Program-made: the position numbers and the translations under genes
Shown: positions 33,951-58,149 of the stretch, in pieces
Numbering within the stretch: position 1 is the first letter of the stretch
Layout: the number at the start of each line of letters is the position of its first letter
The notes under the pieces: generated by a model
The model's input: the letters and a program-made list of their open reading frames with translations, nothing else
What the model was told of the DNA's origin: nothing
Databases searched by the model: none
Origin: an uncultured Candidatus Saccharibacteria bacterium
GTDB lineage: Bacteria; Patescibacteriota; Minisyncoccia; Minisyncoccales; JAGOPM01
Assembly (NCBI GenBank): GCA_964596325.1
Contig: CAZQSQ010000002.1
Coordinates: 10,820 to 74,819 of the forward strand
DNA length: 64,000 bases
Direction of reading: 5' to 3'

Positions 33951-34012
33951 TATAGCCTGAATTTGTAAAAACAAAAAAGCAGGATTTCAACATCCTGCTT
34001 TTTTCGCATTGT

Positions 34013-35215
34013 TTAGTTGCAAGAACCGCTGCTGCTGTCAGTGGTTCCCTCTCCGATTCCGGGACTGGCTACGGTTTTAGCCAAGACTGTCTCGCACTCC
34101 TTGGGCTTAACCGTGAAGGCCGCACAAACCGCTTTCTTAAACTCCTCGGGGGAGCGGTCCACTTGGACTTCTTCGCCATTAATGATGATTGTCGGCGAGC
34201 CTTGGACGTTATACTTCTTATTCAGTTCCTCATAAATCGGGAAAGCTTCAGACTTGTCATTGATATTGTATTTCTTCATTGTCGCCGCAAAGCAGGCGGC
34301 CAATTTAGCCTCATCAACCTGGGCTTGCTTGGCGCAATCTGCATGCTTGTCGGTTTTTACAAAGCAAGAAAGGTATTTGGAAAACTTCTCGGTTTGTTCG
34401 CTGGAAATGCAATACTGCCTGACATTTTGTTCCGCTTCGGTAAAACCATGCATGGTGTAATTCACATAATAAACACCCATGGAAGCCTTGTCTTTAAGTA
34501 AATCGTAAACCGGCAAAAACATTTTTTCCGCCTGTAAGCCGAATGGGCAATACGACATCACAAAAAGCTGCACCTCCGGCTTTGCCGTGGCCTTAACTTG
34601 CACGCTCGCCGCCTCAGTTTTGGTGGCAGCTCCCTTAACCTCGGCCGTTGGCTTGATTGGCTCCAAGGAATTTATGGCCGCGGGAAAAATGTATTTTCCG
34701 TCTTCGCTGACATAAACCAAACCGCGACTTTCTTTGGTTTTGCCGTCTACCAGAGTGATTTCATAAACCCCACCCTCTTTCTTGTATGACTTGAAAGCCA
34801 AATCCGGTAATTGCTCGGATTTAAGCTCGCTATTTATATACTTAACAGTCTTCAGAGCCACCAAATAAGACAACAAAGGCTCGAACTTATTGGTTTTTTC
34901 CGAAACTATTATTTGGGCTTGGCCCGCTGGGGCACAAGAGCAGGCTCCATCTTTAGCCACAGAAATTTTTGTAGTTTCTTGGCTGGCAGGCGCCGTCTCA
35001 TCCTCGGGGGCCTTTTGGGTCTCGCTTGGCAAGTTGCAAGCAGCGTTTTGTTCGCTGTTATTGGCTTGGGCGCGAGCCTCATCTAGGGCTTTTTGCAACC
35101 CTTGGTTGTTGCCATAAAGCGTCAGGAGGAAGATGGCGCTTATTGCCAACAACGAAATCAAGATAACATTTAAGCTAACTTTCCCTTTCGGGCTTTCGTG
35201 TTGCATAACTGTCAT
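34013..35215 (-). CDS. Extracytoplasmic DsbA-like thioredoxin-fold protein with a degenerate CPFG motif (paralog A)
   Basis: N-terminal TM helix, a low-complexity linker, then FVMSYCPFGLQAEK (CPxC-like with the second Cys replaced by Gly) and a cis-Pro-type QGSPTIIINGEEV block. Extra Cys pairs and a C-terminal ..GSCN. Homologous to ORF 38373..39473. Confidence 0.55.
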   Translation of the reverse strand: MTVMQHESPKGKVSLNVILISLLAISAIFLLTLYGNNQGLQKALDEARAQANNSEQNAACNLPSETQKAPEDETAPASQETTKISVAKDGACSCAPAGQAQIIVSEKTNKFEPLLSYLVALKTVKYINSELKSEQLPDLAFKSYKKEGGVYEITLVDGKTKESRGLVYVSEDGKYIFPAAINSLEPIKPTAEVKGAATKTEAASVQVKATAKPEVQLFVMSYCPFGLQAEKMFLPVYDLLKDKASMGVYYVNYTMHGFTEAEQNVRQYCISSEQTEKFSKYLSCFVKTDKHADCAKQAQVDEAKLAACFAATMKKYNINDKSEAFPIYEELNKKYNVQGSPTIIINGEEVQVDRSPEEFKKAVCAAFTVKPKECETVLAKTVASPGIGEGTTDSSSGSCN

Positions 35216-36567
35216 TTATTTTTCATCTTTGCTAAAATATTGGCCGCTTTGCGGGGATCGGAGAAATTGGGGATTTTGTTTTCCTCCAAAACATTTATTC
35301 CCGGCAATGTCATCTTGCCCCCTAAAAAGCAGCAAACTATTGGTTTATCCGCATGCCCTTTTGCAGCATGTGCGGTTATGTTAGCATTCTCGATTGGATT
35401 TGTCATTATTTGCATGGTCTGCAAAACTATCAGAGCAGAAATGTCTTTTTGGTCAAGTAAAGCATTTATGGCCGCTTCGTATTTTTGAGCCGTGGCATCA
35501 CCCACAACGTCTACAGGGTTGGCCTTTGACCAGGCCGGATGCATAACACCGGGCGCCTCCAAAATCTTCAGGGTTTTACCGTCTAAATTTGCCAGTTCCA
35601 AACCAAACTCTTGGCAGGCATCAGCCGTTAAAACACCCACCCCGCCGCCATTGGTCACTATCCCGATTTTGCCAGTAAAACGCGGCTGCCAAGCCAAGGC
35701 CTTGCACAAATCCAGCAGCTCTTCCACGCTTTGAGCCTCGATGGCGCCGGCTTTTTGGAATGCGGCCTGATAAATCTTATACTCTCCGGCCAAGGAACCG
35801 GTATGCGTGCTGGCTGCCTTTTTGCCCACCTCTCCTTTGCCGGCTTTGATAACCACGATTGGCTTGCTTTGGCTGACTTCCTGGCAAGCTTTGACGAATT
35901 CCCGGCCGTTGTTAATTCCTTCAATATAAATTCCAATAACTTTTGTTTGCGGGTCTTTGCCGCAGGCCAGAATCAATTCCGACAGATTAATATCGCCCTC
36001 ATTGCCAATGGAGATAATTTTTGAAAAACCGTAATTTTGCGCCAGCGACACATCAATTATCGAGTCAATCATGGCACCACTTTGCGAAATCAAGGCGATT
36101 GCTCCGGCCTTGGGGCTCGCCGGGGCAAATGAAGCATTAAGATTGGCCCAGGGATTAAGAACGCCCAAACAGTTCGGACCCAAAAGCGGAATACCCGCCT
36201 TTTTCAAAGCCGCTACCAAACCTTCTTGAATTTTTTGGCCTTCAGCTCCGGTTTCGGCAAACCCAGCGGAAATTATTATGACCGCTCCAACCTTATTAGT
36301 AATGCATTCGTCGATAATCATGGGCACAATTTTTGCCGGTACTGCAATGACCGCCAAATCAATTACTGCCCCGATATCTGAAAGCGACTTATGCGTCTTG
36401 ATGCCAAAAATTTCCGCCTCATTAGGATTGACAAAATATATCTCCCTGTGTTCCTTCCCTTCAAGGACATTTTTTGCCAAGCCCGAGCCGACTGTATTAG
36501 CCAGGCTGTTGGCCCCGATAATGGCGATGCTTTTTGGTTCAAATAACGCCTGAAAATTTCTGGGCAT
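35212..36567 (-). CDS. Acetate--CoA ligase (ADP-forming), alpha subunit (CoA-binding plus ligase-CoA domains)
   Basis: KSIAIIGANSLANTVG Rossmann/CoA-binding motif, and the succinyl-CoA-synthetase-alpha-like phosphohistidine loop GTHTGSLAGEYKIYQAAF. Start set at MPRNFQ because the 60-codon extension overlaps the upstream gene. Confidence 0.8.
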   Translation of the reverse strand: MPRNFQALFEPKSIAIIGANSLANTVGSGLAKNVLEGKEHREIYFVNPNEAEIFGIKTHKSLSDIGAVIDLAVIAVPAKIVPMIIDECITNKVGAVIIISAGFAETGAEGQKIQEGLVAALKKAGIPLLGPNCLGVLNPWANLNASFAPASPKAGAIALISQSGAMIDSIIDVSLAQNYGFSKIISIGNEGDINLSELILACGKDPQTKVIGIYIEGINNGREFVKACQEVSQSKPIVVIKAGKGEVGKKAASTHTGSLAGEYKIYQAAFQKAGAIEAQSVEELLDLCKALAWQPRFTGKIGIVTNGGGVGVLTADACQEFGLELANLDGKTLKILEAPGVMHPAWSKANPVDVVGDATAQKYEAAINALLDQKDISALIVLQTMQIMTNPIENANITAHAAKGHADKPIVCCFLGGKMTLPGINVLEENKIPNFSDPRKAANILAKMKNK

Positions 36568-36568
36568 A

Positions 36569-37183
36569 TTATTGTAAAATTTTGAAATCCACGGCAATGG
36601 TAGCATGTTTGGCGGCCATGACCGGATTAAAATCAATTTCGGAAATGTTTGTCTCGTTTTCCGCCAACCGGCTGACTTTGCTGATAAAGCCGGCCAGAGC
36701 TTCCAAATCGGCCTGTTCGCCCCCGCGCTCGCCCTGCAATACCGCAAAACCTTTAATTTCCCGTATCATGCCCAACGCCTCCTCCTTGCTGACTGGGCAA
36801 AGCCGAAAGGAAACGTCTTTTAAGATTTCGACAAAAATCCCGCCTAAACCGAACATGATTACCGGCCCAAATTGCCTATCATACTTGACGCCAATGGACA
36901 CTTGGTGCCCGCTTTCCATTTTTTGCACCATTATTTGTTTGGCCTTGCCTTGCAAATCCTTAAAGGCCAGCTCCAACTCAGCAGCGTTTTTAATATTAAT
37001 TTTAACCCCACCAAGTTCCGAGCGGTGCAGAACATCATCGCCCCAAATTTTTGCCACGACCGGATAGCCGATTTTTTGCGCATAGTTTTTGGCTTGGCCA
37101 AAGTCTTCAAATATCTCTGAGGGTGCGACTGGTATTGAATATTTTTCCAACAGCTCCTTGCTCTTTTGAAAATCTAAAAGCAT
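36569..37183 (-). CDS. Acetate--CoA ligase (ADP-forming), beta/ATP-grasp subunit
   Basis: ATP-grasp-like block (YPVVAKIWGDDVLHRSELGGVKINIKN). Tail-to-head with the alpha-subunit gene (stop and start overlap). Confidence 0.7.
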   Translation of the reverse strand: MLLDFQKSKELLEKYSIPVAPSEIFEDFGQAKNYAQKIGYPVVAKIWGDDVLHRSELGGVKINIKNAAELELAFKDLQGKAKQIMVQKMESGHQVSIGVKYDRQFGPVIMFGLGGIFVEILKDVSFRLCPVSKEEALGMIREIKGFAVLQGERGGEQADLEALAGFISKVSRLAENETNISEIDFNPVMAAKHATIAVDFKILQ

Positions 37184-37297
37184 ATTGCTTATATTATAGC
37201 AAATGATTAAAAATTTACTAAAAGCCCCTTTTATAAGGGGCAATTTTCTGAAATTTTGACGATTAGCCCTTATTAGCGGCTTTTAAGTACCTTCGCA

Positions 37298-38293
37298 TCA
37301 TGCTTCGGCGGCTCGAAGACAAAATTCTCCCAACCTGCAAGAATATGCCCACTCATTATCATACCAAGCGACAACCTTTACCAGATTCCCGCTAGCCATA
37401 GTTAAAGGTGCATCTAAAATCGAGGAATAAGTATCGCCTTTGAAGTCCATGGAAACCAATTGCTCTTCGCTGACGCGGAAAACACCTTTAATTTCATTGG
37501 CCTTAAAAACATCATTGAGCTCTTCCTTGGTCGTCTCCTTTTTAAGAGTGCAAACAAAATCAACTATGGAAACCGTGGGCGTGGGCACACGCAAAGAAAG
37601 GCCATCAAGCTTGCCGGATTTTTCGCCCAAAACTTTGCCAACCGTTTTGGCGGCACCTGTGCTGGTGGGAATAATATTCAAACCGGCAGCGCGGGCACGG
37701 CGCAAATCCTTGTGCGGCAAATCCAATATATTCTGGTCGTTGGTATAGCTGTGGACCGTGGTCATAAACCCTTTCTCGATGCCAAAATTATCCGCGAGGA
37801 TTTTGACAACGGGAGCCAAACAATTCGTGGTGCAAGAACCCATATCAATAACATCATCAGAGCAACCGGCTAAATCCTGGTCATTGATTCCAATAACAAA
37901 TGATTTTACTTTATCGGGCGTTTTTGACGGCGCCGACAAGATAACCCTTTTAGCTCCGGCTTCGATGTGCTTATGCGCGTCTTCGTATTTGGTGAAAGCG
38001 CCAGTGCACTCCAAAACAACATCGACTCCCAGCTCCTTCCACGGCAATTTAGTGGGATCTTTTTCGGAAAGGAGTTTTATTTCTTTCCCGTCTATCACCA
38101 TCGCCCCCTCCTTTTCTTCGACTTCGAAGCCGCAATAGCCATACGAAGAATCATATTGGAGAAGGTGCACCAAAGTGTGGTTATCAGTGAGGTCGTTGAT
38201 GGCCACTACTTCGATTTGCGGGATATTTTTGATGATATTACGGAAAGTTAAACGGCCAATTCTCCCAAAGCCGTTGATTGCAATTTTTGGCAT
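37298..38293 (-). CDS. gap: Glyceraldehyde-3-phosphate dehydrogenase (type I)
   Basis: MPKIAINGFGRIGR NAD-binding start and the SCTTNCLAP catalytic Cys motif. The ORF-track N-terminal 65-aa extension overlaps the upstream gene and has no homology, so it is not included. Confidence 0.92.
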   Translation of the reverse strand: MPKIAINGFGRIGRLTFRNIIKNIPQIEVVAINDLTDNHTLVHLLQYDSSYGYCGFEVEEKEGAMVIDGKEIKLLSEKDPTKLPWKELGVDVVLECTGAFTKYEDAHKHIEAGAKRVILSAPSKTPDKVKSFVIGINDQDLAGCSDDVIDMGSCTTNCLAPVVKILADNFGIEKGFMTTVHSYTNDQNILDLPHKDLRRARAAGLNIIPTSTGAAKTVGKVLGEKSGKLDGLSLRVPTPTVSIVDFVCTLKKETTKEELNDVFKANEIKGVFRVSEEQLVSMDFKGDTYSSILDAPLTMASGNLVKVVAWYDNEWAYSCRLGEFCLRAAEA

Positions 38294-38372
38294 AGTATTT
38301 ATTTCAAACAAATTATAGCAAATGCGTTCTAAAAAGCAAAAACCTCCGCTCGCGCGGAGGTTTAAGAAAAAA

Positions 38373-39473
38373 TCAGTTACAGGAAGCGTTGCTGGAAGCA
38401 GCCGCGCCAGTGTTGGGCCCCATACCGGCCGAAGCTGCAGACTCGGAAAGCTTTTGGTCGCACTCTGCCGGCTTGTTATTGAAAGCATTGCAAATGGCGG
38501 TCTTAAATCCTTCCGGTGAACGAGTCACATTAGAAACCTCCGTACCATTAATAACCAAAGTCGGAGAACCCTGAACAGCGAATTGCTTGTTTAGCTCATC
38601 GTGTAAGGCAAAGGCCGGAAAGCCCTTCTCTTGGCTGTATTCGTAATCCTTGGCATTGGCGGAAAGCTTAAGCTCGGAAAAAGTCTTGCTATAGCAGCTC
38701 TCCAGCTTGGCGGTATCAATACCCGCTTTGCTTGCACAGCTGCTGTGGGCGGGATTATAGCAAGCCTCGGCGGCTGCTTGGGCTGCAGCGGCATCTTTGA
38801 GCGCGGCCGCAGCCTTTTGGCAGGCGCTGACATCGTAAGTGGCAAAGCAAGTCAAGTAAGCATTATATTTATCATTCTGCTCCTTTTCAATGCAATACTG
38901 CCGAATATTTTGATCAGCTTCTTTTTTGCCGTGCATTATATAATTCACATAATAAATGCCGATATCAGCCTTATCCTTGAGCAGCTGCATCGCGGGCAAA
39001 ATAGCCTTCTCGGCCTGCAAGCCGAATGGGCAAAAAGACATGACAAATAATTTAACCTCGGGCTTGTCACTCTTTTTTACTTCTTTGGTAGCCGCGGCAT
39101 TTCCTTCTTTATTGGCATCTTCTTTCTTTTTAATCTCGATCAATTCGCCGGGGAAAATTGCTTGGCCGTCCTTGGTAACCGACAAGACACCTACTTCAAT
39201 CTCTGTGCCCTTATCATCCTTGGTTTTAATTTTAACCGTGTAAAGACCATGGCTTTCGCTAATGGTTTTTTCGTCATAAAAATATTCCGGAGATTCTGGC
39301 GTGCGGAAATTCTCATTGACATATTTCATCGCGTCTTTAATCGCGACACCTTTGGAAACGCCTCCAATAGAAAGACCTCCCTTCATCGCGAAAGCAAATA
39401 CGATTGCGAGCAGCAGCAATACCGCTACTATCGGCCAAAGTAAATTCTGGCCCTTTTGTTGTTCTTCTGCCAT
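38373..39473 (-). CDS. Extracytoplasmic DsbA-like thioredoxin-fold protein with a degenerate CPFG motif (paralog B)
   Basis: N-terminal TM helix, FVMSFCPFGLQAEK, YYVNYIMHG, QGSPTLVINGTEV and a C-terminal ..ASCN. Collinear with paralog A over the whole C-terminal region. Confidence 0.55.
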   Translation of the reverse strand: MAEEQQKGQNLLWPIVAVLLLLAIVFAFAMKGGLSIGGVSKGVAIKDAMKYVNENFRTPESPEYFYDEKTISESHGLYTVKIKTKDDKGTEIEVGVLSVTKDGQAIFPGELIEIKKKEDANKEGNAAATKEVKKSDKPEVKLFVMSFCPFGLQAEKAILPAMQLLKDKADIGIYYVNYIMHGKKEADQNIRQYCIEKEQNDKYNAYLTCFATYDVSACQKAAAALKDAAAAQAAAEACYNPAHSSCASKAGIDTAKLESCYSKTFSELKLSANAKDYEYSQEKGFPAFALHDELNKQFAVQGSPTLVINGTEVSNVTRSPEGFKTAICNAFNNKPAECDQKLSESAASAGMGPNTGAAASSNASCN

Positions 39474-43261: not shown

Positions 43262-44629
43262 TTACTTTTTAATTCTTAAAAATGCGGGGATATCCCATTT
43301 CTTTTCCTGCTCAGACATTTTCTTTTCGCTATCTTCGGCCTCGCGCTTAATCTCAATAGCATTCTTGCGCAAATTGTCACTGCCCTTATCGGGTGCAGGA
43401 TGAGTGGTAATGGTAATTTTTTGAGCCGGCTTGCTCGCTGCTTTTTTTACGGGCTTTTTGTGCTTGGCTTTGGGTGTCGGCGGCTTTACTTCGGGCTTAA
43501 CTTCTGGTTTGCTTTCGCGAAAAATGGCGTCCCGGATATTTTTGACAGGACTGCCCTCACCGATAGCTAAAAGCGTTACCCGAATCTTGTCGCTTTTGTC
43601 CGAACGCAGCAAAATTCCAAAAATTATTTTGGCTTTGATGTTGGGCGAAGTGATGCGTTGGGCGATTTCTTCAACCTCCATCATTTTCAAATCGGCTGGA
43701 CCGGTAATATTAAACATTATCCTTTCAACCTCGATGGCTTTGGCTTCCCGGCCGCTGACAATACCATTGTCCACCAAAGGATTATCCAAAAGCTTTTCAA
43801 TCATGGTATTGAGGTCTTTGCGCTCCCCCTCAATGCTATTTTGGTAAGCGGTTTTTCCATAACCCTCCAAGATGCTCCGAAAATCCGCAAAATCAATATT
43901 GATCAAACCCGCCTCGTAAAGCGTTTCCAAAAGACCCTTGATGGTCATGGCCAAGCTTTTATTGATGGCAGAAAACGATTGCTTGATGGCCGTGCGCGGG
44001 TCGATTACCTTGAATATTTTTTCATTAGGAATAACTAAAGAAGCGGAAAGATGCGGCCGGATATTTTCCAAAGACTCTTGGGCAATGCGGCGGCGCTTTT
44101 CTCCCTCAAATTCGAACGGGAGGGTAAAAATTCCCAAGCTAATTTTGTGTGCTAAGCGTGACGCTTCGGCAAAAATTGGCATCGCGCCCGAGCCAGTTCC
44201 CCCGCCCAAGCCGGAGATAAAAATGCACAAATCACAATTTGCCACTTCTCTTTTTATTTCTTCTTTGGATTGCTCGGCAGCTTGGCGGGCCAAATCAGGA
44301 TTCATACCGCAGCCCAAGCCGTTAGTTAAACCCTTGCCCAAAACCAATTTGCGAACATTTTCCGGTAAAGATTCCAAACTTTGAATATCGGTATTGGCAG
44401 CCAAAAAAGAAATTTTCTTATTCGGGGCAACAATATTGGCAATCTCCCCGACAATCGAGCAACCTCCGCCGCCCACTCCAAAAACCTTTATTTTAATTGC
44501 GGGGTTTTCCATGGAGTGCGCCTTGGCTTGTTCGATTATCTCCTTGGCAATATCCTGAGATAAAGGGGCCGGAGCTTTGGTTTGATTTTTTTTATCCGCT
44601 TTTTCCATAAAATTTGGCAGAATTACCAT
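43262..44629 (-). CDS. ftsZ: Cell division GTPase FtsZ with a long K/P-rich C-terminal linker
   Basis: GVGGGGCS, the tubulin signature GGGTGSG and the T7 loop. The C-terminal roughly 100 aa are lysine/proline-rich. The start could be 44629 or 44608. Confidence 0.9.
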   Translation of the reverse strand: MVILPNFMEKADKKNQTKAPAPLSQDIAKEIIEQAKAHSMENPAIKIKVFGVGGGGCSIVGEIANIVAPNKKISFLAANTDIQSLESLPENVRKLVLGKGLTNGLGCGMNPDLARQAAEQSKEEIKREVANCDLCIFISGLGGGTGSGAMPIFAEASRLAHKISLGIFTLPFEFEGEKRRRIAQESLENIRPHLSASLVIPNEKIFKVIDPRTAIKQSFSAINKSLAMTIKGLLETLYEAGLINIDFADFRSILEGYGKTAYQNSIEGERKDLNTMIEKLLDNPLVDNGIVSGREAKAIEVERIMFNITGPADLKMMEVEEIAQRITSPNIKAKIIFGILLRSDKSDKIRVTLLAIGEGSPVKNIRDAIFRESKPEVKPEVKPPTPKAKHKKPVKKAASKPAQKITITTHPAPDKGSDNLRKNAIEIKREAEDSEKKMSEQEKKWDIPAFLRIKK

Positions 44630-45183
44630 TCTGCCCGGTTAATTTTCAAATAAAAACCGATTTTGTTGATAATGACGTGTAAAATAAAAGTGAAGACCAG
44701 TAAAATTACCCAAATCCGGATATCGGCCAGCTTGCCGATAAGAAAAAATACGAAGCCTACACCAATGACATAATTGATTTGGTCCCAAATAATCCAGCTT
44801 TCCCCGGGCTCCAAATTAATCCGTCTCTTAATAAAGCTGAAAAGCAAATCGCCGCAGAGCGCGCCTAAAGGAATAAGAATGCCCAACCATAAAGGTTCTT
44901 TGCTGTAATCAAGAATGGAGATGGCTTGGAAAAAATCAGCGACGTAAAGCAGCTTTTGCACAACATAAATCAGAAAACCGACCAAAGTCCCTAGAATAAG
45001 TCCGCGCCAAGTTTTATGGTCTCCAAAAATATCATTGCCCCGGAATTTCCTTCCCCCATCAACGGGCTTGTTCAAAAATTCCGCAATACCTAAAAAACGC
45101 AAAACCGGCGGCGTCATATTGGCAAAATACGCCGGCAAAAAAAAGTATAAACACTGGACGATTAATTGGGAGGAAAAATTCAT
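44623..45183 (-). CDS. CDP-archaeol synthase-like (DUF46/CarS family) CTP-dependent membrane protein
   Basis: Five or six TM helices and a GDHKTWRG motif like the CarS family. 186 aa. Confidence 0.55.
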   Translation of the reverse strand: MNFSSQLIVQCLYFFLPAYFANMTPPVLRFLGIAEFLNKPVDGGRKFRGNDIFGDHKTWRGLILGTLVGFLIYVVQKLLYVADFFQAISILDYSKEPLWLGILIPLGALCGDLLFSFIKRRINLEPGESWIIWDQINYVIGVGFVFFLIGKLADIRIWVILLVFTFILHVIINKIGFYLKINRAEW

Positions 45184-46436
45184 CAGATAAGCTTTGATTG
45201 TTTTTTTTCTTTGCGATGAGCCGCTTCCAAACCTTTCAACTTGCCGTAAACCCCATCATAGCCGGCCTCCATTTGCACTTTATCCAAACGCACTAGCTCG
45301 ACAGCTGCGGCAATTCCTTCATCAGAATGGCGGGCAATGTCGGCTATCGGCGTTTCAAGCAATAATTCAAACTCACTGGCGACATTTTGGACCAGTTTTT
45401 CATATTGCTCTTTCACCTTGCGGCTAGTGGGGCCAACACCAAAAACATAAGCAATTATCTCTTCGAGCGGGACAATATGCTTAAAGCCAATAGCACCCTC
45501 GGGCTTGAAACCTGAAGGATGTTGGGCGATTTGCTCAACCCGGCTCAGCACGCCAATTGTGAGTTTTTGCCCGCAAACCGGACATAGGCCATTATAGCGC
45601 GCAGTTTCTTTTGGGTCAAAGCTTATTTGACAATTAGCATGCCCGTCATTGTAATATTTACCCTCTTGCGGAAAAAACTCGATTGTGTTCAAAAATTGGC
45701 TATTGTCACGTTTTTTAATTGCCCCGATAATGAAAGTGTAATCCAAATCGCAGGCAAAAACATTGGCCTCCCGGCCTAATTTTTGGATAGAGTGCGCGTC
45801 AGAGTTGCTTAACAGCGAAAGGCGGCTGCCATCAGATGTACGCCAAACCATGGCCGGGTCGGCAGAGAGCCCGGTTTCCAAAGCATAAATTTCTGGAGTC
45901 AGTTCCTCAAAACATTCCTGCAAGGAATCAAAACCGGATTTGCTGCCAAAAACCGAAAACCACGGCGTAAAACAATGTCCGGGAACAAAAAGCCCTTGCG
46001 GTGCGCAATCCAAAAAAATTTTTAGCAGTTCTTTGGTATCCAAGCCCAAAATCGGCCGTCCATCGGAATGCAAATTAAATTTTGACAACCTTTCGTTGAA
46101 TTTTTTTGCCGCGGCAATATCAGGAAAAATTACGACAATATGGATCTTGCGCACTTTGCCTCCCTTGCTGTAGATGCAGCTAATTTCCCCAGTAACGGCA
46201 AAATGCACTTGCTTTTCGGGCTCTAAAAGCGAATCGCGCAAAAGATAAAAACCGCTACCCGTTTGTTCCAATTTGGTTTCCATCTCTTTCATCCACAAAG
46301 GATGGGTACAGTCCCCTGTACCCAAAACTTTGATGCCTTTGCGGCACGCACCTTGTTCAAGCGCCTCCAAAGTAATGGCACTGGAAGTGGCGCGCGAATA
46401 TCGGGAATGAATGTGGAAATCGGCTATCAGCTTCAT
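45183..46436 (-). CDS. Endonuclease Q-like PHP-domain nuclease
   Basis: MKLIADFHIHSRYSRATS..VLGTGDCTHPLW closely parallels the archaeal EndoQ N-terminus (DLHIHSxYS..LVGTGD). C-terminal Zn-ribbon-like CPVCGQKL. Start set at the internal Met because the extension overlaps the upstream gene. Confidence 0.65.
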   Translation of the reverse strand: MKLIADFHIHSRYSRATSSAITLEALEQGACRKGIKVLGTGDCTHPLWMKEMETKLEQTGSGFYLLRDSLLEPEKQVHFAVTGEISCIYSKGGKVRKIHIVVIFPDIAAAKKFNERLSKFNLHSDGRPILGLDTKELLKIFLDCAPQGLFVPGHCFTPWFSVFGSKSGFDSLQECFEELTPEIYALETGLSADPAMVWRTSDGSRLSLLSNSDAHSIQKLGREANVFACDLDYTFIIGAIKKRDNSQFLNTIEFFPQEGKYYNDGHANCQISFDPKETARYNGLCPVCGQKLTIGVLSRVEQIAQHPSGFKPEGAIGFKHIVPLEEIIAYVFGVGPTSRKVKEQYEKLVQNVASEFELLLETPIADIARHSDEGIAAAVELVRLDKVQMEAGYDGVYGKLKGLEAAHRKEKKQSKLI

Positions 46437-46437
46437 A

Positions 46438-49400
46438 CTATTTGAATTCCTGGCAGCTGCCCGCATACGGACACCATTTGTCCGTGGCTCTGGTAACTGT
46501 AAGGTCTAAATACTTTTCTACTTGTTTCCTACCTTGCAGGCAAGTGATATAGAAACGGACCGGGCTTTCCACTTCCTTCATGCCAAAGGGCGCGGAAGCA
46601 TAAAAGGAGAAATCGAATTGCTGATAATTAACCGACATTTTCTTGGAAATCGGGAAAATAATTTTTTGCGGGTTGACTCCGATTACCTCGGCCGCCACGG
46701 CCGCTCCTTTGGATTTAGCGCTGCCGGTGATAAATTTCAGACCGCTGGGCAAAATTCCCTCGATAGTCATCTTGCTATCCCTGTCGCAGCCAAATGCCTT
46801 GGCTAATGCGCTCGAACCGTCGTCAGGGTTAAAATAGGGCAGATTTCCGCTGTTTTGGAAATAGCCAAGCCTCTCCATAATACCCTTGCCCACCGCTTTA
46901 GCCACTGCTTTGTCTTTGATGTCGCGGGCATCCTCGCTCCATTTGGGAGTTTCTTCAAAAATATCAAATTTACGCTCTCGGCTCGGATCGGTTTCGTAAA
47001 TATACCAAGCCGCATACATATCGATCTTATTCTTCTGGGCGGCTCGGGCTTCCCGAATTGCGGCTGAAACGCACTGGTCGGACATAAAATTAGCCGTAGT
47101 CAGCGAACCGTGGCAAACAGCCTTAGCCACGCTATTACGTGTTTCACTGTCCGTATAACCGCCATCTTCGGTAGGCAAGCCTTCGGAAAGAATAAGCATG
47201 ACTTTTACATCACCGGCGCGGCCGGCAGTTATCAAGGCTTGGTGGGCCATATTGATTGCCTTGGCCAAATTGGTTGTCCCGCCGTAAGAAAGCGAATCCA
47301 CGGCCGAATTCCAAGTATTAATATTCTGGGTAAAAGCCAAAGGAATGCCGTTATTAGTCATCTTCAACTTGGCTGTACCGTGGCTGGCTTCGATGATACC
47401 GATATTATCCTTACCGCTCTCCGTATTTATTTGGCCATACAACCCCTTAATAACCTGACGATATTGCTCCAAGAATTTTGCACGGTCCGGGGCATTGGCC
47501 GGGACATTCATAGATTCGGAAAGATCGGCCACAATCATCACATAGCGGGAAATGTCAAAATCTTCAGCTTTTAAGTTGCTGCCGCGGGTTAGCTCACCGC
47601 TGAATTGATAGCAGCCGCAATATTCTTCCAAGGGCAAAAGGATTGTCTGGTTTTCCGATATCTTGTCGAGCTGGCCACCTTGGGAGGTCGCCATATATTC
47701 CAAAGTAATATCGAATTTTTTATCCTTATCCAAATCCATGCTGGCCTTATCCAAAGAAAATTTGATATTAAACGGCTGCGTTTCGCCGAATTTCATTTCT
47801 CTGTTAAAGGCAACCGCGTAACTGACTGTCCCGTCAGGCGACTCGCTGGCCTTGCGCGCTCCGGCTACCGTTACTTTTTTAGGCGCTCTCACAACCACGC
47901 TCAGAGAACTGCAACCCTCGTTGAATTTGCACATGATAGCACCCTTAAAATACGTATAAGCAAATTTTCCTTGCGTGCCGCATTCCGTGCAAAAATCCGC
48001 TTTAACTTCCACGCGGGGCGGAGGCGGGCGGCGACAAAGAGCAAACTCTTGCGGGCTAGGCAGGCTCTGCGCTGCTGGCTCGGCCACGGAAGAAGCCGTA
48101 ACTACGTCTTTCCCGGCAAAAACTGAAGCCTTGATATTGAATAATGCCGCGTTATTTTTCAACGAAGATCCCGTAATCAGCTTCTCAAGATTTTCATGGT
48201 CCACCTGCCACTTGAGGTTGACATATTCGGTTTCACCGGCGGCAAGCAAGGGTATGGAAAAGCGTAAATTGCCCGGCTTAATCTCAGAAAATTCCACTTT
48301 ATCTAAGGCGCTTTCAAAACCGGCATAGCGGACCAAATATTTTGGCGAGTAGGCCACATTTACACTGACGTTTTGGCAATTCAGCTGGCCTTCGCATTTA
48401 AGGGCGATACTGCTTGTGCCGATATAATTTACCGAACCGGGATTATAGCAATCAAATTCCGTTTTAACGCTGGAGACTATATTTATCTTGGGCAATTCGC
48501 CCTTGGGCGGCTCCTTGCACTCTTCGGGAATGGGCATGGCAAAAGTGATATTTTCTATCTTGCCATACTGGCGGGTGTAGCCATTGGTATAATTTAGTTG
48601 CGCCTTAGCCAAACCGGATTGCGGCAAGCTGCCCGAGTAGTTGAGGCTGACATCAAACTCAATGGTTTTGGATTCTCCGGGCACCATATCACCCAAAGAA
48701 AAGCGCACCCCGTTCATGCCGTCAAAAGAATTGTCGTAAACCGCCCCTCCGCCTTGCAGGCTGCTTGAATATTTGAAAGTTTTGGCAATATAAGAGGCGT
48801 AAACCGGAAACTTATCGGAAAGATAAATGTCTTGGCATTTGAATTGCGGATAATTGCCTATGCAGGTTACCTTGAAAGTTAAATGAGCGACACACTTGTT
48901 TAACGCAATATTGCGCTCGATGGCAATGTCTAAACCGCCCTCCTTTTTATCCTCGGGTTTTACGCACATGGAGGCCTTATTCATTCCCAAATCCAATTCC
49001 CGCTTATAGCCGCTGGAATCGACGAAACGATAAAGACTCTTGGGAAAATCCACAAGATTGCCCGGATTGCTCACCTTATAATCCTTGTCGAAAATCACTT
49101 GAAAATTCATGATTTCCCCCATAGTCATATTCCCCGTATTCCATTTAACGACGGAATTATTCTGCTCCATACCCAAAAGCTTGGCCTTACTTGGATAATT
49201 AACCGTGCTGAATTTATAATTGCCCTTGGCGCGCAATTCCAAAGAAGAATTGTCGCAGACCGGCGGCGGAGAAGTTTTTGACTTGGTGATAATTTTGTCA
49301 AAAATGGAATTAAGATCGGAAAGCGTCTCAGACTCAAAATAATAATCATCGCCCTTGGCCATATCGCGCAACAGTTGCCTGGCATTCTTAGCTGCCTCTT

Positions 49401-50481
49401 CGGGCACATTAACGGTCAAAAACCCGGCTTCGGTTTTTATCCGCAAAGTTTGACCTTCGCTTGACTCGAGCTCTTGCAAGGCGTAACCCACGACATTGAG
49501 CTGAATATCATTTTTGGCCACAGCCGTCTTTGCCCGATCGCGAGAATCGACAACGCATTTATTATTGCCTGAAGGCGGGTTAGTTTTGGGAGAAGGATAA
49601 GATTCGTCGCACTCGCCATTGGTGGAATTGTTAGGCACGCCATCGGAAAGGAGAATCAAAACTTTTTTACTCCCCGATTTGGGATTGGCGGCAAAAAGAT
49701 CCATGGCCTTTTTTAAGCCGTCGGCAATATTGGTCGTGCGCTCTCCCGCTACTAAAGAAGAAATTGCGCCGCGGCTTTTAGGGAATTTGGCCGAAGCATC
49801 AAAGCCACCCGAAACTATTTTCCCGGCATTGCCAAAAGTGACAATACCCACCCGATCGAATTTTGAATCAAATTTATCCATGGCCGCCAGCAAATGCTGC
49901 TTGGCATAATCAATGCGGCGTTTGCCATTGGCCAAAGGTTGGCCCATGGTCCCGGAAATGTCCACCAGAAAAACCACATCGATATTATTACGGACTATCT
50001 TTGTGGTGTTGGGGCTGCCGCAAACTATGCCAAAGCAAACCGCCGAACGCCCCGAAACATCTTCGTATTCTTTTTCGCCAGTATCTTCATTGGGTAAAAC
50101 CTCCCCACCCTCGGGGCGCGAAACTTCAAGGGCAGGAGACTGGTCCTGAGCTAAATCAGAGCTGAGCGCTTCTGGTATCTGGCCAGCCTCAGTTGTCGGG
50201 GCGCAGGCCGCGCGCACATCGTCACCGTATTGCAAAAAAGTATTGGCGACAAATTCGCCAAGCGCACTGCCCGAGGGCACGTGCAAGGGCCCGACTTTGG
50301 TAGATTGCCCTTTGCTTAAAATATCCAATAAAATATCCTGCCCGTCGCGAAAAATGCTCTGGGTGGAAAAATATGTCCCCTCTTCATTGGTCTGATAAAA
50401 AATCTTTGGGCAGTCCTGCGCTAGGGCAAGCGGCGCAATACAGAATAATGCAAATGCGGCGGCAATAATTTCTTTTTTCAT
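46438..50481 (-). CDS. Giant secreted protein (1347 aa) with two von Willebrand factor A domains
   Basis: Signal peptide MKKEIIAAAFALFCIAPLALA. VWA/MIDAS blocks VDVVFLVDISGTMG..ILLSDGVPN and VMIVADLSESMN..MLILSEGLPT. Many Cys residues. Confidence 0.7.
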   Translation of the reverse strand: MKKEIIAAAFALFCIAPLALAQDCPKIFYQTNEEGTYFSTQSIFRDGQDILLDILSKGQSTKVGPLHVPSGSALGEFVANTFLQYGDDVRAACAPTTEAGQIPEALSSDLAQDQSPALEVSRPEGGEVLPNEDTGEKEYEDVSGRSAVCFGIVCGSPNTTKIVRNNIDVVFLVDISGTMGQPLANGKRRIDYAKQHLLAAMDKFDSKFDRVGIVTFGNAGKIVSGGFDASAKFPKSRGAISSLVAGERTTNIADGLKKAMDLFAANPKSGSKKVLILLSDGVPNNSTNGECDESYPSPKTNPPSGNNKCVVDSRDRAKTAVAKNDIQLNVVGYALQELESSEGQTLRIKTEAGFLTVNVPEEAAKNARQLLRDMAKGDDYYFESETLSDLNSIFDKIITKSKTSPPPVCDNSSLELRAKGNYKFSTVNYPSKAKLLGMEQNNSVVKWNTGNMTMGEIMNFQVIFDKDYKVSNPGNLVDFPKSLYRFVDSSGYKRELDLGMNKASMCVKPEDKKEGGLDIAIERNIALNKCVAHLTFKVTCIGNYPQFKCQDIYLSDKFPVYASYIAKTFKYSSSLQGGGAVYDNSFDGMNGVRFSLGDMVPGESKTIEFDVSLNYSGSLPQSGLAKAQLNYTNGYTRQYGKIENITFAMPIPEECKEPPKGELPKINIVSSVKTEFDCYNPGSVNYIGTSSIALKCEGQLNCQNVSVNVAYSPKYLVRYAGFESALDKVEFSEIKPGNLRFSIPLLAAGETEYVNLKWQVDHENLEKLITGSSLKNNAALFNIKASVFAGKDVVTASSVAEPAAQSLPSPQEFALCRRPPPPRVEVKADFCTECGTQGKFAYTYFKGAIMCKFNEGCSSLSVVVRAPKKVTVAGARKASESPDGTVSYAVAFNREMKFGETQPFNIKFSLDKASMDLDKDKKFDITLEYMATSQGGQLDKISENQTILLPLEEYCGCYQFSGELTRGSNLKAEDFDISRYVMIVADLSESMNVPANAPDRAKFLEQYRQVIKGLYGQINTESGKDNIGIIEASHGTAKLKMTNNGIPLAFTQNINTWNSAVDSLSYGGTTNLAKAINMAHQALITAGRAGDVKVMLILSEGLPTEDGGYTDSETRNSVAKAVCHGSLTTANFMSDQCVSAAIREARAAQKNKIDMYAAWYIYETDPSRERKFDIFEETPKWSEDARDIKDKAVAKAVGKGIMERLGYFQNSGNLPYFNPDDGSSALAKAFGCDRDSKMTIEGILPSGLKFITGSAKSKGAAVAAEVIGVNPQKIIFPISKKMSVNYQQFDFSFYASAPFGMKEVESPVRFYITCLQGRKQVEKYLDLTVTRATDKWCPYAGSCQEFK

Positions 50482-50483
50482 AT

Positions 50484-51263: not shown

Positions 51264-51273
51264 CTTTCCTTTT

Positions 51274-54591: not shown

Positions 54592-54592
54592 A

Positions 54593-56053: not shown

Positions 56054-56068
56054 ATTTTTGAAAAATTT

Positions 56069-58111: not shown

Positions 58112-58149
58112 GCCTGCTTTAATTATAGTATTTTGTTGCCTTAAAAGAA

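What the first reader, a model, noticed from the sequence alone, without database searches (positions are those of the whole stretch)
34013..39473. Two paralogous extracytoplasmic DsbA-like proteins with a monothiol CPFG motif bracketing the ACD-GAPDH block
ORFs 34013..35215 and 38373..39473 share a collinear C-terminal domain: KPEV(Q/K)LFVMS(Y/F)CPFGLQAEK, YYVNY.MHG, RQYCI, and QGSPT(I/L).ING.EV as a cis-Pro loop. The second Cys of the usual CPxC motif is replaced by Gly. Both have additional conserved Cys pairs, a C-terminal SCN and N-terminal membrane anchors. They flank the genes for ADP-forming acetyl-CoA synthetase and GAPDH. A monothiol DsbA-like fold suggests isomerase, chaperone or mixed-disulfide-carrier roles rather than oxidase activity.
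Basis: seen in the sequence. Interest (0 to 1): 0.55.

Follow-up and report, generated by a model that had tools for sequence, protein, structure and literature searches.

The report
Bacterial GILT-like thiol enzymes, split active site
The two genes encode membrane-anchored, outward-facing relatives of the animal lysosomal disulfide reductase GILT (a DsbA-type thioredoxin fold) that have lost the second active-site cysteine but always carry a cysteine at the tip of a flexible tail, an uncharacterised enzyme design found in hundreds of Patescibacteria (CPR) genomes.

Summary
ORFs 34013-35215 and 38373-39473 (both on the - strand) are paralogs (40% identity, E 2e-76). Each has an N-terminal membrane anchor and a C-terminal DsbA-type thioredoxin fold (AlphaFold2 pLDDT >90; best PDB matches are M. 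tuberculosis and S. aureus DsbA and BdbD). They bracket GAPDH and the two ACD subunits.

- **Conservation:** C-P-[YF]-G is invariant in about 200 homologs, nearly all from records titled as Patescibacteria.
- **Family:** the closest specific family is GILT, not DsbA proper. A profile-profile comparison gives 95% probability (E 2e-8; column-shuffled controls 8% or less). Six extra invariant cysteines and the H-G-x2-E-x3-N-x4-C signature align one-to-one. A bacterial protein that passes Pfam's GILT cut-off bridges the two (BLASTP E 5e-13).
- **"Monothiol" is doubtful:** 169 of 172 members have a cysteine about two residues from the C-terminus. It sits on a Gly/Ser-rich tail 24-27 residues long in 165 of those 169.
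- **Context:** the order GILT-like, glutaredoxin, GAPDH is conserved in about 55 of 79 other genomes, but this window has no glutaredoxin.

Best reading (unproven, about 0.45): an extracytoplasmic thiol-disulfide exchange catalyst whose resolving cysteine has moved to a swinging C-terminal arm. This is a new variant of a known kind.

The parts
34013..35215 (-). Paralog A, 400 aa: membrane anchor, A-specific low-complexity extension, small alpha/beta N-domain, linker, GILT/DsbA-like thioredoxin domain, Gly/Ser tail ending in Cys-Asn
   Evidence: ORF. Pfam Thioredoxin_4 30 bits, above the cut-off of 23.2. AF2 model with domain pLDDT >90. Foldseek matches to DsbA structures. The start ATG overlaps the ACD alpha stop codon.
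35117..35179 (-). A: N-terminal transmembrane signal-anchor (residues 13-33)
   Evidence: Predicted helix 15-33. In the family, net charge is more positive on the N-terminal flank than on the C-terminal flank in 77 members and the reverse in 19, which favours N-in/C-out. This is an inference.
34898..35050 (-). A-specific disordered extension with 3 extra Cys (residues 56-106)
   Evidence: pLDDT <50. Absent from typical ~325-aa family members. Cys at 60, 92 and 94.
34670..34897 (-). A: N-domain (residues 107-182), one helix packed on a 3-stranded sheet; function unknown
   Evidence: AF2 model of the domain alone, pLDDT 87. No significant PDB fold match. Only the short motif YVSEDGKYIF resembles DsbC_N.
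34052..34588 (-). A: GILT-like / DsbA-type thioredoxin domain (residues 210-388)
   Evidence: AF2 pLDDT 91-98. Foldseek: Mtb DsbA, SaDsbA, BdbD, VSR1 TRX domain. hhalign to a GILT profile: probability 95%, E 2e-8, with a shuffle control.
34538..34549 (-). A: active-site motif C223-P-F-G226 at the N-terminus of helix alpha1
   Evidence: Translation. C, P and G are invariant in the family. The motif aligns in register with the GILT C-P-x-C.
34409..34459 (-). A: Y-x-M-H-G-x2-E-x3-N-x4-C (residues 253-269), counterpart of the GILT signature CQHGx2ECx2Nx4C without its first two Cys
   Evidence: M255, H256, E260, N264 and C269 are invariant. Alignment to GILT H119, E123, N127 and C132.
34190..34201 (-). 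A: G-S-P-T loop (residues 339-342), predicted cis-Pro loop with an invariant hydroxyl residue (Ser) before the Pro
   Evidence: G339, S340 and P341 are invariant. The loop aligns with GILT V-P-W. The role of the residue before the cis-Pro is from PMC2665069.
34016..34051 (-). A: flexible Gly/Ser/Thr-rich C-terminal tail (residues 389-400) ending in Cys399-Asn
   Evidence: Low pLDDT. A tail Cys is present in 169/172 unique members. Its distance from the last structural Cys is 24-27 aa in 165/169.
38373..39473 (-). Paralog B, 366 aa: same architecture; occupies the ancestral syntenic position between iPGM and GAPDH
   Evidence: ORF. 40% identity to A. Weak DSBA and GILT Pfam hits. BLASTP to a bacterial GILT protein, E 1.3e-11. 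Synteny.
39384..39443 (-). B: N-terminal transmembrane anchor (residues 11-30)
   Evidence: Hydrophobicity scan.
39021..39032 (-). B: active-site motif C148-P-F-G151
   Evidence: Translation.
38376..38417 (-). B: Gly/Ala/Ser-rich tail ending in Cys365-Asn
   Evidence: Translation. Family-wide tail Cys.
38340..38363 (-). Terminator-like hairpin directly after B
   Evidence: 10-bp stem with 6 GC pairs and a T-rich tail. This is a consensus scan only.
33973..34004 (-). Terminator-like hairpin directly after A
   Evidence: 13-bp stem and a T run. This is a consensus scan only.
37298..38293 (-). GAPDH (context gene; conserved neighbour of the family)
   Evidence: Pfam Gp_dh_N/C. [GILT-like]-Grx-GAPDH in ~55 of 79 loci.
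35212..37183 (-). ACD beta (ATP-grasp_5) and ACD alpha (CoA-binding/Succ_CoA_lig) (context genes between the paralogs)
   Evidence: Pfam. Gene calls on an identical contig.

Best explanation
A and B are single-pass, N-in/C-out membrane-anchored proteins. Their outward-facing catalytic domain is a bacterial member of the GILT branch of the DsbA-like thioredoxin-fold superfamily.

**Proposed mechanism (inferred)**
- Cys223 sits at the N-terminus of helix alpha1, next to the Ser-cisPro loop and the invariant Met-His. It is the nucleophile that attacks disulfides, or is attacked by thiols, in exported proteins and forms a mixed disulfide.
- The canonical resolving cysteine has been replaced by an invariant glycine.
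- Its role is taken by the invariant penultimate cysteine (Cys399 in A, Cys365 in B). That cysteine is carried on a flexible Gly/Ser arm of fixed length, acting in cis or between subunits.
- The enzyme therefore works as a 'split CxxC' thiol-disulfide exchange catalyst (reductase/isomerase type).
- The other six invariant cysteines are structural disulfides inherited from the GILT ancestor.
- Likely clients are the organism's Cys-rich exported proteins.

**Shown here:** the fold, the homology to GILT, the invariance of the motifs, the constraint on tail length, the synteny and the paralogy.

**Inferred:** the topology, which cysteines pair, the direction of electron flow, and the substrates.
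For: - **Fold:** AF2 pLDDT >90 in the domain. Foldseek top hits are M. tuberculosis DsbA (E 2.7e-6, TM 0.63), S. aureus DsbA, BdbD and the VSR1 TRX domain.
- **GILT homology:**
  - Pfam GILT is the family hit by most members (82/92).
  - hhalign against a broad GILT profile gives probability 95.3%, E 2.1e-8, over 155 columns with the active site in register.
  - 30 column-shuffled controls score 8% or less.
  - The bridging bacterial protein in L094 passes Pfam GILT at 77 bits. It matches A at E 4.8e-13 and the family HMM at E 2.7e-28.
  - All six non-active-site invariant Cys align with GILT's conserved Cys.
- **Active site:** C-P-[YF]-G is present in 100% of ~200 sequences. An invariant Gly, rather than the Ser/Thr usual in monothiol variants, suggests a steric requirement (inference).
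- **Ser before the cis-Pro:** it is invariant. A hydroxyl residue at this position hydrogen-bonds and activates the nucleophilic Cys in DsbC, DsbG and SaDsbA (PMC2665069).
- **Tail Cys:**
  - It is present in 169/172 unique members, 24-27 residues after the last structural Cys in 165/169, although the tail is 64% Gly+Ser.
  - The one bacterial relative found that keeps CPYC (L094 domain 2) has no tail and no tail Cys.
  - Eukaryotic CxxS GILTs show no such tail Cys.
- **Outward orientation:** the charge bias favours N-in, and the structural Cys are homologous to those of a lysosomal protein.
- **Possible clients:** four exported proteins with 12-29 Cys each lie in the same window, two of them with papain-family domains.
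Against: - No coordinates were available, so the reach of the tail to Cys223 was not measured. AF2 gives the last ~10 residues low confidence.
- Cys223 and Cys399 are both near-invariant, so no covariation test is possible. The 'CxxC means no tail Cys' support rests on a single sequence.
- The mouse GILT structure 6NWX was not among the top 50 Foldseek hits. The window proteins themselves fall below Pfam's GILT cut-off.
- No membrane electron-transfer partner (DsbB, VKOR, CcdA) was seen in the window by a crude scan for multi-TM and CxxC proteins or in the flanks of related loci, so the source or sink of electrons is unknown.
- The conserved neighbour is a cytoplasmic glutaredoxin. It cannot directly contact an outward-facing domain.
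- mosGILT (CxxS) has no reductase activity and acts non-enzymatically (PMC6060088).
Confidence: 0.45

Rival explanations
1. True monothiol enzyme or holder. Cys223 alone forms mixed disulfides with client proteins or with a low-molecular-weight thiol. These are resolved by an external thiol (glutaredoxin-like monothiol mechanism) or persist (ERp44-like retention or chaperone role). On this reading the tail Cys only makes an intermolecular disulfide, for example a covalent homodimer or an attachment to another envelope protein.
For: - The second CxxC position is Gly in every member.
- A CxxS mutant of mouse GILT retains partial reducing activity and stalls at the mixed disulfide (PMC6060088).
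- Vertebrate GILT precursors also carry a near-invariant Cys close to the C-terminus. From my own recollection of Phan et al. 2002 (not checked here), that Cys mediates precursor dimerisation.
- The tail has low AF2 confidence.
Against: - The tightly constrained tail length (24-27 aa in 165/169) is more easily explained by a fixed intramolecular target, though a symmetric dimer could also constrain it.
- No low-molecular-weight thiol pathway was identified.
- An invariant Gly instead of Ser/Thr/Ala is unusual for simple monothiol variants (one search shows that eukaryotic variants use Ser or Trp).
Confidence: 0.25
2. Non-redox scaffold. The thioredoxin fold is used as a binding or adaptor module, as in mosGILT, YjbH or the plant VSR TRX domain, and the cysteines are structural only.
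For: - mosGILT (CxxS) has no detectable reductase activity, and its function does not need the active-site Cys (PMC6060088).
- The VSR1 TRX domain is among the best structural matches (PMC11052993).
Against: Absolute conservation of Cys223, Pro224, Gly226, Ser340-Pro341, His256, Glu260 and Asn264 across ~200 divergent sequences argues for a chemically active site. So does the conserved operon partnership with a small CxxC redoxin.
Confidence: 0.1
3. Metal-handling protein. Cys223, the tail Cys and the adjacent invariant Met255-His256 bind Cu(I), Zn or an Fe-S cluster, by analogy with Sco-type or monothiol-glutaredoxin-type thioredoxin folds.
For: An invariant Met-His next to the active site plus two thiols is a plausible soft-metal ligand set. 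This is inference only.
Against: - His, Glu and Asn are inherited from GILT, which is a reductase.
- No metal transporter or cuproenzyme genes are nearby.
- No similarity to Sco or PCuAC families was found.
Confidence: 0.07
4. Cytoplasm-facing redox protein. It is anchored to the inner face of the membrane and works directly with the co-transcribed glutaredoxin (and thioredoxin reductase) on glycolytic enzymes such as GAPDH.
For: - Same-strand [GILT-like]-Grx-GAPDH is conserved in ~55 of 79 loci, often translationally coupled.
- Thioredoxin or thioredoxin reductase lies nearby in several loci.
- B's own flanking charges are ambiguous.
Against: - The family-wide charge bias favours N-in/C-out (77 vs 19).
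- Six invariant Cys are homologous to the structural Cys of a lysosomal protein, and these would not stay oxidised next to Trx/Grx systems.
- In this window the paralogs persist with no Grx or Trx anywhere in 64 kb.
Confidence: 0.08

Closest known systems
[quoted passage not shown]
   Same: - Thioredoxin fold with a helical insertion.
- Active-site Cys-Pro at the start of helix alpha1. Many eukaryotic GILTs read CP[YF]C, against CP[YF]G here.
- The H-G-x2-E-x3-N-x4-C signature.
- Six further conserved Cys at aligned positions, including the C-x2-[FY]-x3-4-P-x2-C pair near the C-terminus.
- The cis-Pro loop.
- Location in a non-cytosolic compartment.

   Different: - The second active-site Cys is Gly.
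- The GILT-specific pair C117/C124 is absent.
- The window proteins fall below Pfam's GILT cut-off.
- They have an N-terminal membrane anchor plus an extra N-domain instead of propeptides.
- They have an invariant penultimate Cys on a Gly/Ser tail.
- They are prokaryotic (Patescibacteria), and nothing indicates acidic-pH function.
- 6NWX was not in the Foldseek top 50.
Gram-positive/actinobacterial DsbA-type oxidases (S. aureus DsbA 3BCI, B. subtilis BdbD 3EU3/4, M. tuberculosis DsbA 4JR6; Pfam Thioredoxin_4/DSBA)
   Same: - Best structural matches.
- Pfam Thioredoxin_4 above its cut-off for A.
- Membrane-tethered and extracytoplasmic in monoderm bacteria.
- A hydroxyl residue before the cis-Pro, as in SaDsbA.
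   Different: - No CxxC.
- A GILT-type cysteine pattern that these DsbAs lack.
- No DsbB/BdbC/VKOR partner seen nearby.
- A bona fide GILT-family protein (L094) cross-hits Thioredoxin_4 and DSBA at the same ~33-36 bits. The Thioredoxin_4 hit therefore reflects superfamily-level similarity.
Natural CxxS members of the fold: mosGILT (Anopheles), ERp44
   Same: Only the N-terminal active-site Cys is kept. The expected behaviour is long-lived mixed disulfides or non-catalytic binding (PMC6060088; ERp44 is cited from general knowledge).
   Different: - Those proteins use Ser, not Gly.
- Eukaryotic CxxS GILTs show no associated conserved tail Cys (2 of 9).
- mosGILT acts through a hydrophobic C-terminus, not a Gly/Ser-Cys tail.
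Redox enzymes with a cysteine or selenocysteine on a flexible C-terminal arm (mammalian thioredoxin reductase GCUG tail, class I ribonucleotide reductase C-terminal Cys pair, Erv2 CGC tail)
   Same: The design principle: a redox-active residue on a flexible terminal arm shuttles between a buried or fixed active site and partners. These examples are from general knowledge and were not tested here.
   Different: Unrelated folds. In those enzymes the arm supplements a complete active site, whereas here it would replace the missing half of a CxxC.
DsbC/DsbG (dimeric periplasmic isomerases)
   Same: An N-terminal extra domain followed by a linker and a thioredoxin domain. A short motif (Y-V-S/T-x-D-G-K-x-L-F) resembles DsbC residues 34-48. 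A hydroxyl residue precedes the cis-Pro.
   Different: The N-domain model gives no significant fold match to DsbC_N or to anything else. All sequence hits are below threshold. The catalytic domain is DsbA/GILT-type with no CxxC.
Two-domain bacterial GILT-family lipoprotein on metagenome contig JAAUYD010106425.1 (L094:1367-3067, - strand)
   Same: It is the closest sequence-level relative outside the Patescibacteria family (30% identity, E 5e-13). It shares the SxHG..E..N..C signature without the C117/C124 pair. Its domain 1 is also monothiol (CPFF).
   Different: - It passes Pfam GILT (77 bits).
- Domain 2 keeps CPYC and has neither a tail nor a tail Cys.
- It has a lipoprotein-type N-terminus and tandem domains.
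- Its contig carries ordinary bacterial genes (AI-2E transporter, PPDK, histidine kinase).

Membership tests
GILT family (Pfam PF03227) | Score above Pfam's curated cut-off (22.4 bits) | tested here: not met
   A has no GILT hit at E<=1. B scores 13.1 bits, E 0.12. 82 of 92 family members hit GILT at E<=1, the best at 1.7e-4.
GILT family (Pfam PF03227) | Homology detectable by profile-profile comparison or through intermediate sequences | tested here: met
   hhalign probability 95.3%, E 2.1e-8, 155 columns. Shuffled controls reach 8% or less. The bridge protein in L094 scores 77 bits on Pfam GILT, matches A by BLASTP at E 4.8e-13, and matches the family HMM at E 2.7e-28.
GILT family (Pfam PF03227) | CxxC active site with both cysteines needed for reduction | tested here: not met
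   C-P-[YF]-G in all ~200 members. GILT requires both Cys (PMC6818130; PMC6060088).
GILT family (Pfam PF03227) | GILT signature CQHGx2ECx2Nx4C | tested here: inconclusive
   H, G, E, N and the last C are kept with exact spacing (M-H-G-x2-E-x3-N-x4-C). The first two Cys are replaced by [IY]/[IL].
GILT family (Pfam PF03227) | Conserved structural cysteines outside the active site | tested here: met
   C269, C284, C294, C308, C364 and C374 align with GILT C132, C148, C162, C178, C226 and C237. That is six of GILT's eight. Actual disulfide pairing was not determined.
GILT family (Pfam PF03227) | Thiol reductase activity with an acidic optimum in an endolysosomal compartment | not testable with these tools
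   Needs biochemistry. Prokaryotes have no lysosome.
DsbA-like oxidoreductases (Pfam DSBA / Thioredoxin_4) | Thioredoxin fold with an inserted helical domain | tested here: met
   AF2 secondary-structure order beta-alpha-beta, helical insertion (257-334), beta-beta-alpha. Foldseek matches to DsbA structures with TM ~0.5-0.63 on the target. Thioredoxin_4 scores 30 bits against a cut-off of 23.2 for A.
DsbA-like oxidoreductases (Pfam DSBA / Thioredoxin_4) | Redox-active CxxC (CPHC-type) | tested here: not met
   CP[YF]G.
DsbA-like oxidoreductases (Pfam DSBA / Thioredoxin_4) | cis-Pro loop opposite the active site | tested here: met
   Invariant G-S-P-T immediately before beta3. The cis conformation itself is inferred.
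DsbA-like oxidoreductases (Pfam DSBA / Thioredoxin_4) | Membrane re-oxidising partner (DsbB, BdbC or VKOR) | tested here: inconclusive
   No multi-TM CxxC protein in the 64-kb window or in the flanks of related loci. The rest of the genome could not be examined.
DsbC/DsbG isomerases | N-terminal dimerisation domain (DsbC_N) homologous in sequence or fold | tested here: not met
   Only sub-threshold motif hits. Foldseek with the N-domain model gives a best E of 0.15 and no DsbC.
Monothiol thioredoxin-fold proteins (CxxS type, e.g. ERp44, mosGILT) | A single reactive Cys with no second Cys able to resolve the mixed disulfide | tested here: inconclusive
   The CxxC position 4 is Gly, but a near-invariant tail Cys at a fixed distance exists. 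Whether it reaches Cys223 could not be computed.

The most novel reading that the evidence does not exclude
Patescibacteria (and some genomes whose records are titled as DPANN archaea) carry a prokaryotic GILT lineage. It works with a split active site: the nucleophilic Cys on helix alpha1 and the resolving Cys on a swinging C-terminal arm. Together with secreted papain-family proteases, such as the two encoded 12-20 kb away in this window, it would form an extracellular 'lysosome-like' module that unfolds and digests disulfide-rich host or environmental proteins for these auxotrophic episymbionts. A bacterial GILT clade of this kind could also bear on the origin of eukaryotic GILT.
Probability: 0.12. 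Interest if true: 0.8.

Novelty: new variant of a known kind. Interest (0 to 1): 0.58.

Why it matters
- **Gap in CPR biology:** how CPR/Patescibacteria, a large share of bacterial diversity with tiny genomes and Cys-rich surface proteins, handle extracytoplasmic thiol-disulfide chemistry is, as far as I know, uncharacterised; four full-text literature searches found no paper on CPR DsbA- or GILT-like proteins. This family is found in at least 532 stretches of GTDB representative genomes. It sits in a conserved operon context and is a strong candidate for that role.
- **Enzymology:** an invariant CxxG plus a fixed-length Cys-tipped arm would be a new way to build a thioredoxin-fold redox site, and it is directly testable with two point mutants.
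- **Evolution:** the result extends GILT, which is treated in the literature as a eukaryotic immune and lysosomal enzyme, to bacteria.
- **Open question:** the conserved GILT-like, glutaredoxin, GAPDH cluster poses a concrete, unexplained link between envelope redox chemistry and central metabolism.

Tried and rejected
1. **DsbC-like architecture.** Weak DsbC_N and PRK10877 hits suggested an N-terminal dimerisation domain. The N-domain was folded on its own (pLDDT 87) and has no significant PDB match. Rejected as unsupported.
2. **Vertebrate-only GILT profile.** It gave only 28-52% hhalign probability and weak HMM hits. A broad GILT profile built from 50%-identity representatives was needed.
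4. **Search for CxxC-type prokaryotic relatives.** The metagenome DNA-pattern scan gave one real hit, L094. A protein search with L094 domain 2 found nothing.
5. **Glutaredoxin or thioredoxin in the window.** None was found by tblastn.
6. **DsbB/VKOR/CcdA-like genes in the window.** None was found by a TM/CxxC scan, and Pfam on the multi-TM candidates gave PMT-like and CarS-like families.
7. **Papain-like peptidases next to the family in other genomes.** None lies within ±4 kb.
8. **Tail Cys linked to monothiol variants in eukaryotic GILT.** No association was found.
9. **Sequence search of the PDB.** Only weak BdbD and glutaredoxin-like hits.
10. **Literature.** No paper on CPR DsbA- or GILT-like proteins or on prokaryotic GILT was found.

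Full report
**Observation**

The two ORFs are real and lie at the stated coordinates on the minus strand: A is 34013-35215 (400 aa) and B is 38373-39473 (366 aa). BLASTP aligns them collinearly over 332 residues at 40% identity, E 2e-76. Each protein has one hydrophobic helix near the N-terminus.

The genes between them are GAPDH, ACD beta (ATP-grasp_5) and ACD alpha (CoA_binding_2, Succ_CoA_lig, Ligase_CoA_2). The wider minus-strand block reads FtsZ, UGPase, enolase, iPGM, B, GAPDH, ACD beta, ACD alpha, A, PEP synthase, PfkB. Terminator-like hairpins follow B (38363-38340) and A (34004-33973) directly. A's ATG overlaps the ACD alpha stop codon as ATGA. Each paralog therefore appears to be the last gene of its transcription unit. 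That is inferred from consensus scans only.

**Family and conservation**

A protein search with A returned 543 homologs. They are typically ~325 aa, and the few records that carry an organism name are titled Patescibacteria/Paceibacterota. A scan of one genome per GTDB species found 532 encoding stretches. Nearly all are in records titled Paceibacterota, Parcubacteria, Minisyncoccales, Nealsonbacteria, Shapirobacteria, Magasanikbacteria and similar. A few are in MAGs titled as DPANN archaea. The best match is 88% identical and lies on a 957-kb Paceibacterota scaffold.

In alignments of 92-122 members the following are invariant (A numbering): C223, P224, G226, Q228, M255, H256, E260, N264, C269, C284, C294, C308, G339, S340, P341, N346, R354, C364 and C374. 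C399 is 98% conserved. In 88 genes taken from loci, all have CP[YF]G and 87 have a Cys within the last four residues, 66 of them at the penultimate position. Three further loci that my first pattern search missed also have CPxG and the tail Cys.

**Fold**

AlphaFold2 with the family alignment gives the following for A:
- a transmembrane helix (15-33);
- an A-specific disordered stretch (56-106);
- a small N-domain (109-178; one helix plus three strands; pLDDT about 90);
- a disordered linker;
- a thioredoxin domain (210-388; pLDDT 91-98) with the order beta-alpha-beta, helical insertion, beta-beta-alpha;
- a low-confidence tail.

Foldseek against the PDB returns M. tuberculosis DsbA (E 2.7e-6, target TM 0.63), S. 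aureus DsbA, BdbD, many Gram-negative DsbAs, and the TRX domain of plant VSR1. Pfam Thioredoxin_4 is above its cut-off for A (30 against 23.2 bits). The 'DsbA-like fold' claim is correct.

**The closer relative is GILT**

1. When all 92 members were scanned, GILT (PF03227) was the Pfam family hit by the most members (82 of 92), though always below its cut-off. VSR_TRX also appeared. The VSR1 TRX domain is reported to be structurally closest to GILT 6NWX (PMC11052993).
2. A profile built from vertebrate GILTs alone gave only 28-52% hhalign probability. A broad profile of 99 diverse GILT representatives gave probability 95.3%, E 2.1e-8, over 155 columns spanning the whole domain, with the active site in register (MSYCPyG against ESLCPxC). 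Thirty column-shuffled controls scored 9-24 (probability 8% or less) against 54-55 for the real profile.
3. The alignment pairs the family's residues with GILT's as follows:
   - H256, E260 and N264 with GILT H119, E123 and N127;
   - all six non-active-site invariant Cys (269, 284, 294, 308, 364, 374) with GILT's conserved C132, C148, C162, C178, C226 and C237;
   - only GILT's C117/C124 pair is missing.
4. A metagenome DNA-pattern scan for a CxxC version of the motif found a 566-aa lipoprotein-like protein (L094:1367-3067, - strand) on a bacterial contig whose neighbours are an AI-2E transporter, PPDK and a histidine kinase. It has two GILT domains with active sites CPFF and CPYC, and it passes Pfam GILT at 77 bits, E 1.5e-21. 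Window A matches its second domain at E 4.8e-13 (30% identity) and its first at E 1e-10. B matches at E 1.3e-11. The Patescibacteria family HMM scores 85.9 bits (E 2.7e-28).

This intermediate sequence closes the link. The same bona fide GILT protein cross-hits DSBA and Thioredoxin_4 at 33-36 bits, so A's Thioredoxin_4 hit does not argue against GILT affinity.

**Is it really monothiol?**

The fourth position of the CxxC is Gly in every member. Eukaryotic GILTs mostly read CP[GDYF]C, with about 10% natural CxxS or CxxW variants. mosGILT (CxxS) lacks reductase activity, while a CxxS mutant of mouse GILT retains reduced activity (PMC6060088).

What is unique to the Patescibacteria family is the tail:
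- After the last structural Cys comes a conserved L-S-x4-S-P-G-[FI]-G segment that AF2 models as ordered.
- About 10 Gly/Ser-rich residues follow (64% G+S), then a Cys, and usually one more residue.
- The distance from the last structural Cys to the tail Cys is 24-27 residues in 165 of 169 unique sequences (median 25). Only 3 of 172 lack the tail Cys.

Such a tight length constraint on a low-complexity tail implies a defined geometric target. The single CxxC-type bacterial relative found (L094 domain 2) stops three residues after the last structural Cys, with neither tail nor tail Cys. Eukaryotic CxxS GILTs show no enrichment of tail Cys.

I therefore favour a 'split CxxC', in which the tail Cys resolves mixed disulfides formed by Cys223. 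This is an inference. I had no model coordinates, the tail has low pLDDT, and both cysteines are too conserved for covariation analysis. The invariant Ser before the predicted cis-Pro is consistent with an activated Cys223 thiolate. A hydroxyl residue at that position hydrogen-bonds the nucleophilic Cys and is typical of DsbC, DsbG and S. aureus DsbA (PMC2665069).

**Topology**

Across 119 members with a clear hydrophobic helix, net charge is more positive on the short N-terminal flank than on the C-terminal flank in 77 cases and the reverse in 19. Together with six invariant Cys homologous to those of a lysosomal protein, this favours N-in/C-out. This is inferred, and B on its own is ambiguous.

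**N-domain**

Weak hits to DsbC_N rest on a short Y-V-[ST]-x-D-G-K-x-[LI]-F motif. Folded alone (pLDDT 87), the domain has no significant PDB match; the best E is 0.15, and a designed 'cystatin fold' reaches TM 0.48. Homology to the DsbC dimerisation domain is not supported. One member (L080) lacks the domain.

**Genomic context**

- In four long contigs the order is (thioredoxin reductase), enolase, PGM, GILT-like, glutaredoxin (77 aa, CPYC), GAPDH, ACS or ACD, PEP synthase.
- Across 79 GTDB loci, same-strand [GILT-like]-Grx-GAPDH occurs in about 55. Three loci titled Aenigmatarchaeota have [GILT-like]-Trx instead.
- B occupies this ancestral position, but the window has no Grx or Trx anywhere in 64 kb.
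- A sits between ACD alpha and PEP synthase. The two-copy arrangement recurs on related contigs (L006, L008), and a distinct lineage (L014) shows a second copy as well.
- A small NJ tree puts the A and B clades as sisters, so the duplication arose within this Paceibacterota lineage (limited sampling).
- The link to a cytoplasmic glutaredoxin and to GAPDH is conserved but mechanistically unexplained.
- No DsbB-, VKOR- or CcdA-like gene was seen in the window or in the flanks of related loci.

**Possible clients**

The window also encodes four large exported proteins with 12-29 Cys each. Two carry papain-family Peptidase_C1 domains and two carry VWA domains. This shows that the organism exports Cys-rich proteins, and it recalls the GILT-cathepsin pairing of lysosomes. 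These genes are 7-19 kb from B, and no such peptidase lies within ±4 kb of the family in other genomes. This is a lead, not evidence.

**Verdict**

The finding is better described as a large, uncharacterised Patescibacteria clade of the GILT/DsbA-like superfamily. It has an invariant CP[YF]G site and a Cys-tipped C-terminal arm of fixed length.

The most likely function is extracytoplasmic thiol-disulfide exchange with a relocated resolving cysteine (confidence about 0.45). The rivals are a true monothiol or holdase with a dimerising tail Cys (0.25), a non-redox scaffold (0.10), a cytoplasm-facing partner of Grx and GAPDH (0.08) and metal handling (0.07).

No paper on such proteins was found in the held library. 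I rate it a new variant of a known kind, with interest 0.58.

Noticed in passing
window 46438-58192 (- strand): Four large exported, Cys-rich proteins lie in a row. They are 46438-50481 (1347 aa, VWA, 29 Cys), 51274-54591 (1105 aa, papain-family Peptidase_C1 at residues 875-1090, 27 Cys), 54593-56053 (486 aa, DUF333+VWA, 12 Cys, also with a penultimate Cys, ...LTNCK) and 56069-58192 (707 aa, Peptidase_C1, 22 Cys). They are possible clients of the GILT-like proteins, and the pairing recalls lysosomal GILT and cathepsins.
   Followed up: partly
window 38294-38372, and the whole window: The 77-85 aa CPYC glutaredoxin that follows the GILT-like gene in ~55 of 79 other genomes is missing here. The B-GAPDH spacer is 79 bp and holds a terminator-like hairpin. 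No Grx or Trx homolog was found anywhere in the 64 kb.
   Followed up: yes
L094:1367-3067 (- strand; contig JAAUYD010106425.1): A bacterial lipoprotein-like protein has two tandem GILT domains (active sites CPFF and CPYC), separated by a Cys-rich CxDGxDN-type segment. It passes Pfam GILT at 77 bits. This shows that GILT-family proteins exist in bacteria outside Patescibacteria.
   Followed up: partly
window 38800-38920 (B residues ~210-246); L020, L083, L086: B carries an Ala-rich ~27-residue insertion with two extra Cys in the helical sub-domain. Insertions with two or more extra Cys occur at the same place in other members. A instead has a disordered N-terminal extension with three extra Cys (residues 56-106).
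   Followed up: no
L039, L053, L055, L060, L066, L082 (MAGs titled Aenigmatarchaeota or archaeon); L018, L020 (titled Pacearchaeota): Full-length family members with the same architecture, CP[YF]G and tail Cys occur in MAGs titled as DPANN archaea. Three of these are followed by a thioredoxin-like gene instead of a glutaredoxin. This could reflect inter-domain transfer or mis-binning. It was not resolved.
   Followed up: partly
window 44623-45183 and 45183-46466 (- strand): A CarS-like (CDP-archaeol synthase family, 4 TM) gene and a 427-aa gene with no Pfam hit here (marked MJ0043_C on identical contigs L009 and L010) lie directly downstream of FtsZ (43262-44629, - strand) in this bacterial-type genome.
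   Followed up: no
L003:1156-3306: In a related Patescibacteria contig, the thioredoxin-reductase-like gene upstream of enolase carries an intein (Intein_splicing + LAGLIDADG_3 within Pyr_redox_2).
   Followed up: no
window 37224-37241 and 37183-37243: A terminator-like hairpin after GAPDH lies inside the mechanically listed N-terminus of the ACD beta ORF (TTG at 37243), so the real ACD beta start is probably 37183. Likewise, the listed GAPDH ORF (to 38488) overlaps B and probably starts at 38293.
   Followed up: partly
window 1396-3162 (- strand): A 10-TM PMT-family (dolichyl-phosphate-mannose protein mannosyltransferase-like) glycosyltransferase is encoded here. It suggests glycosylation of envelope proteins.
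   Followed up: no
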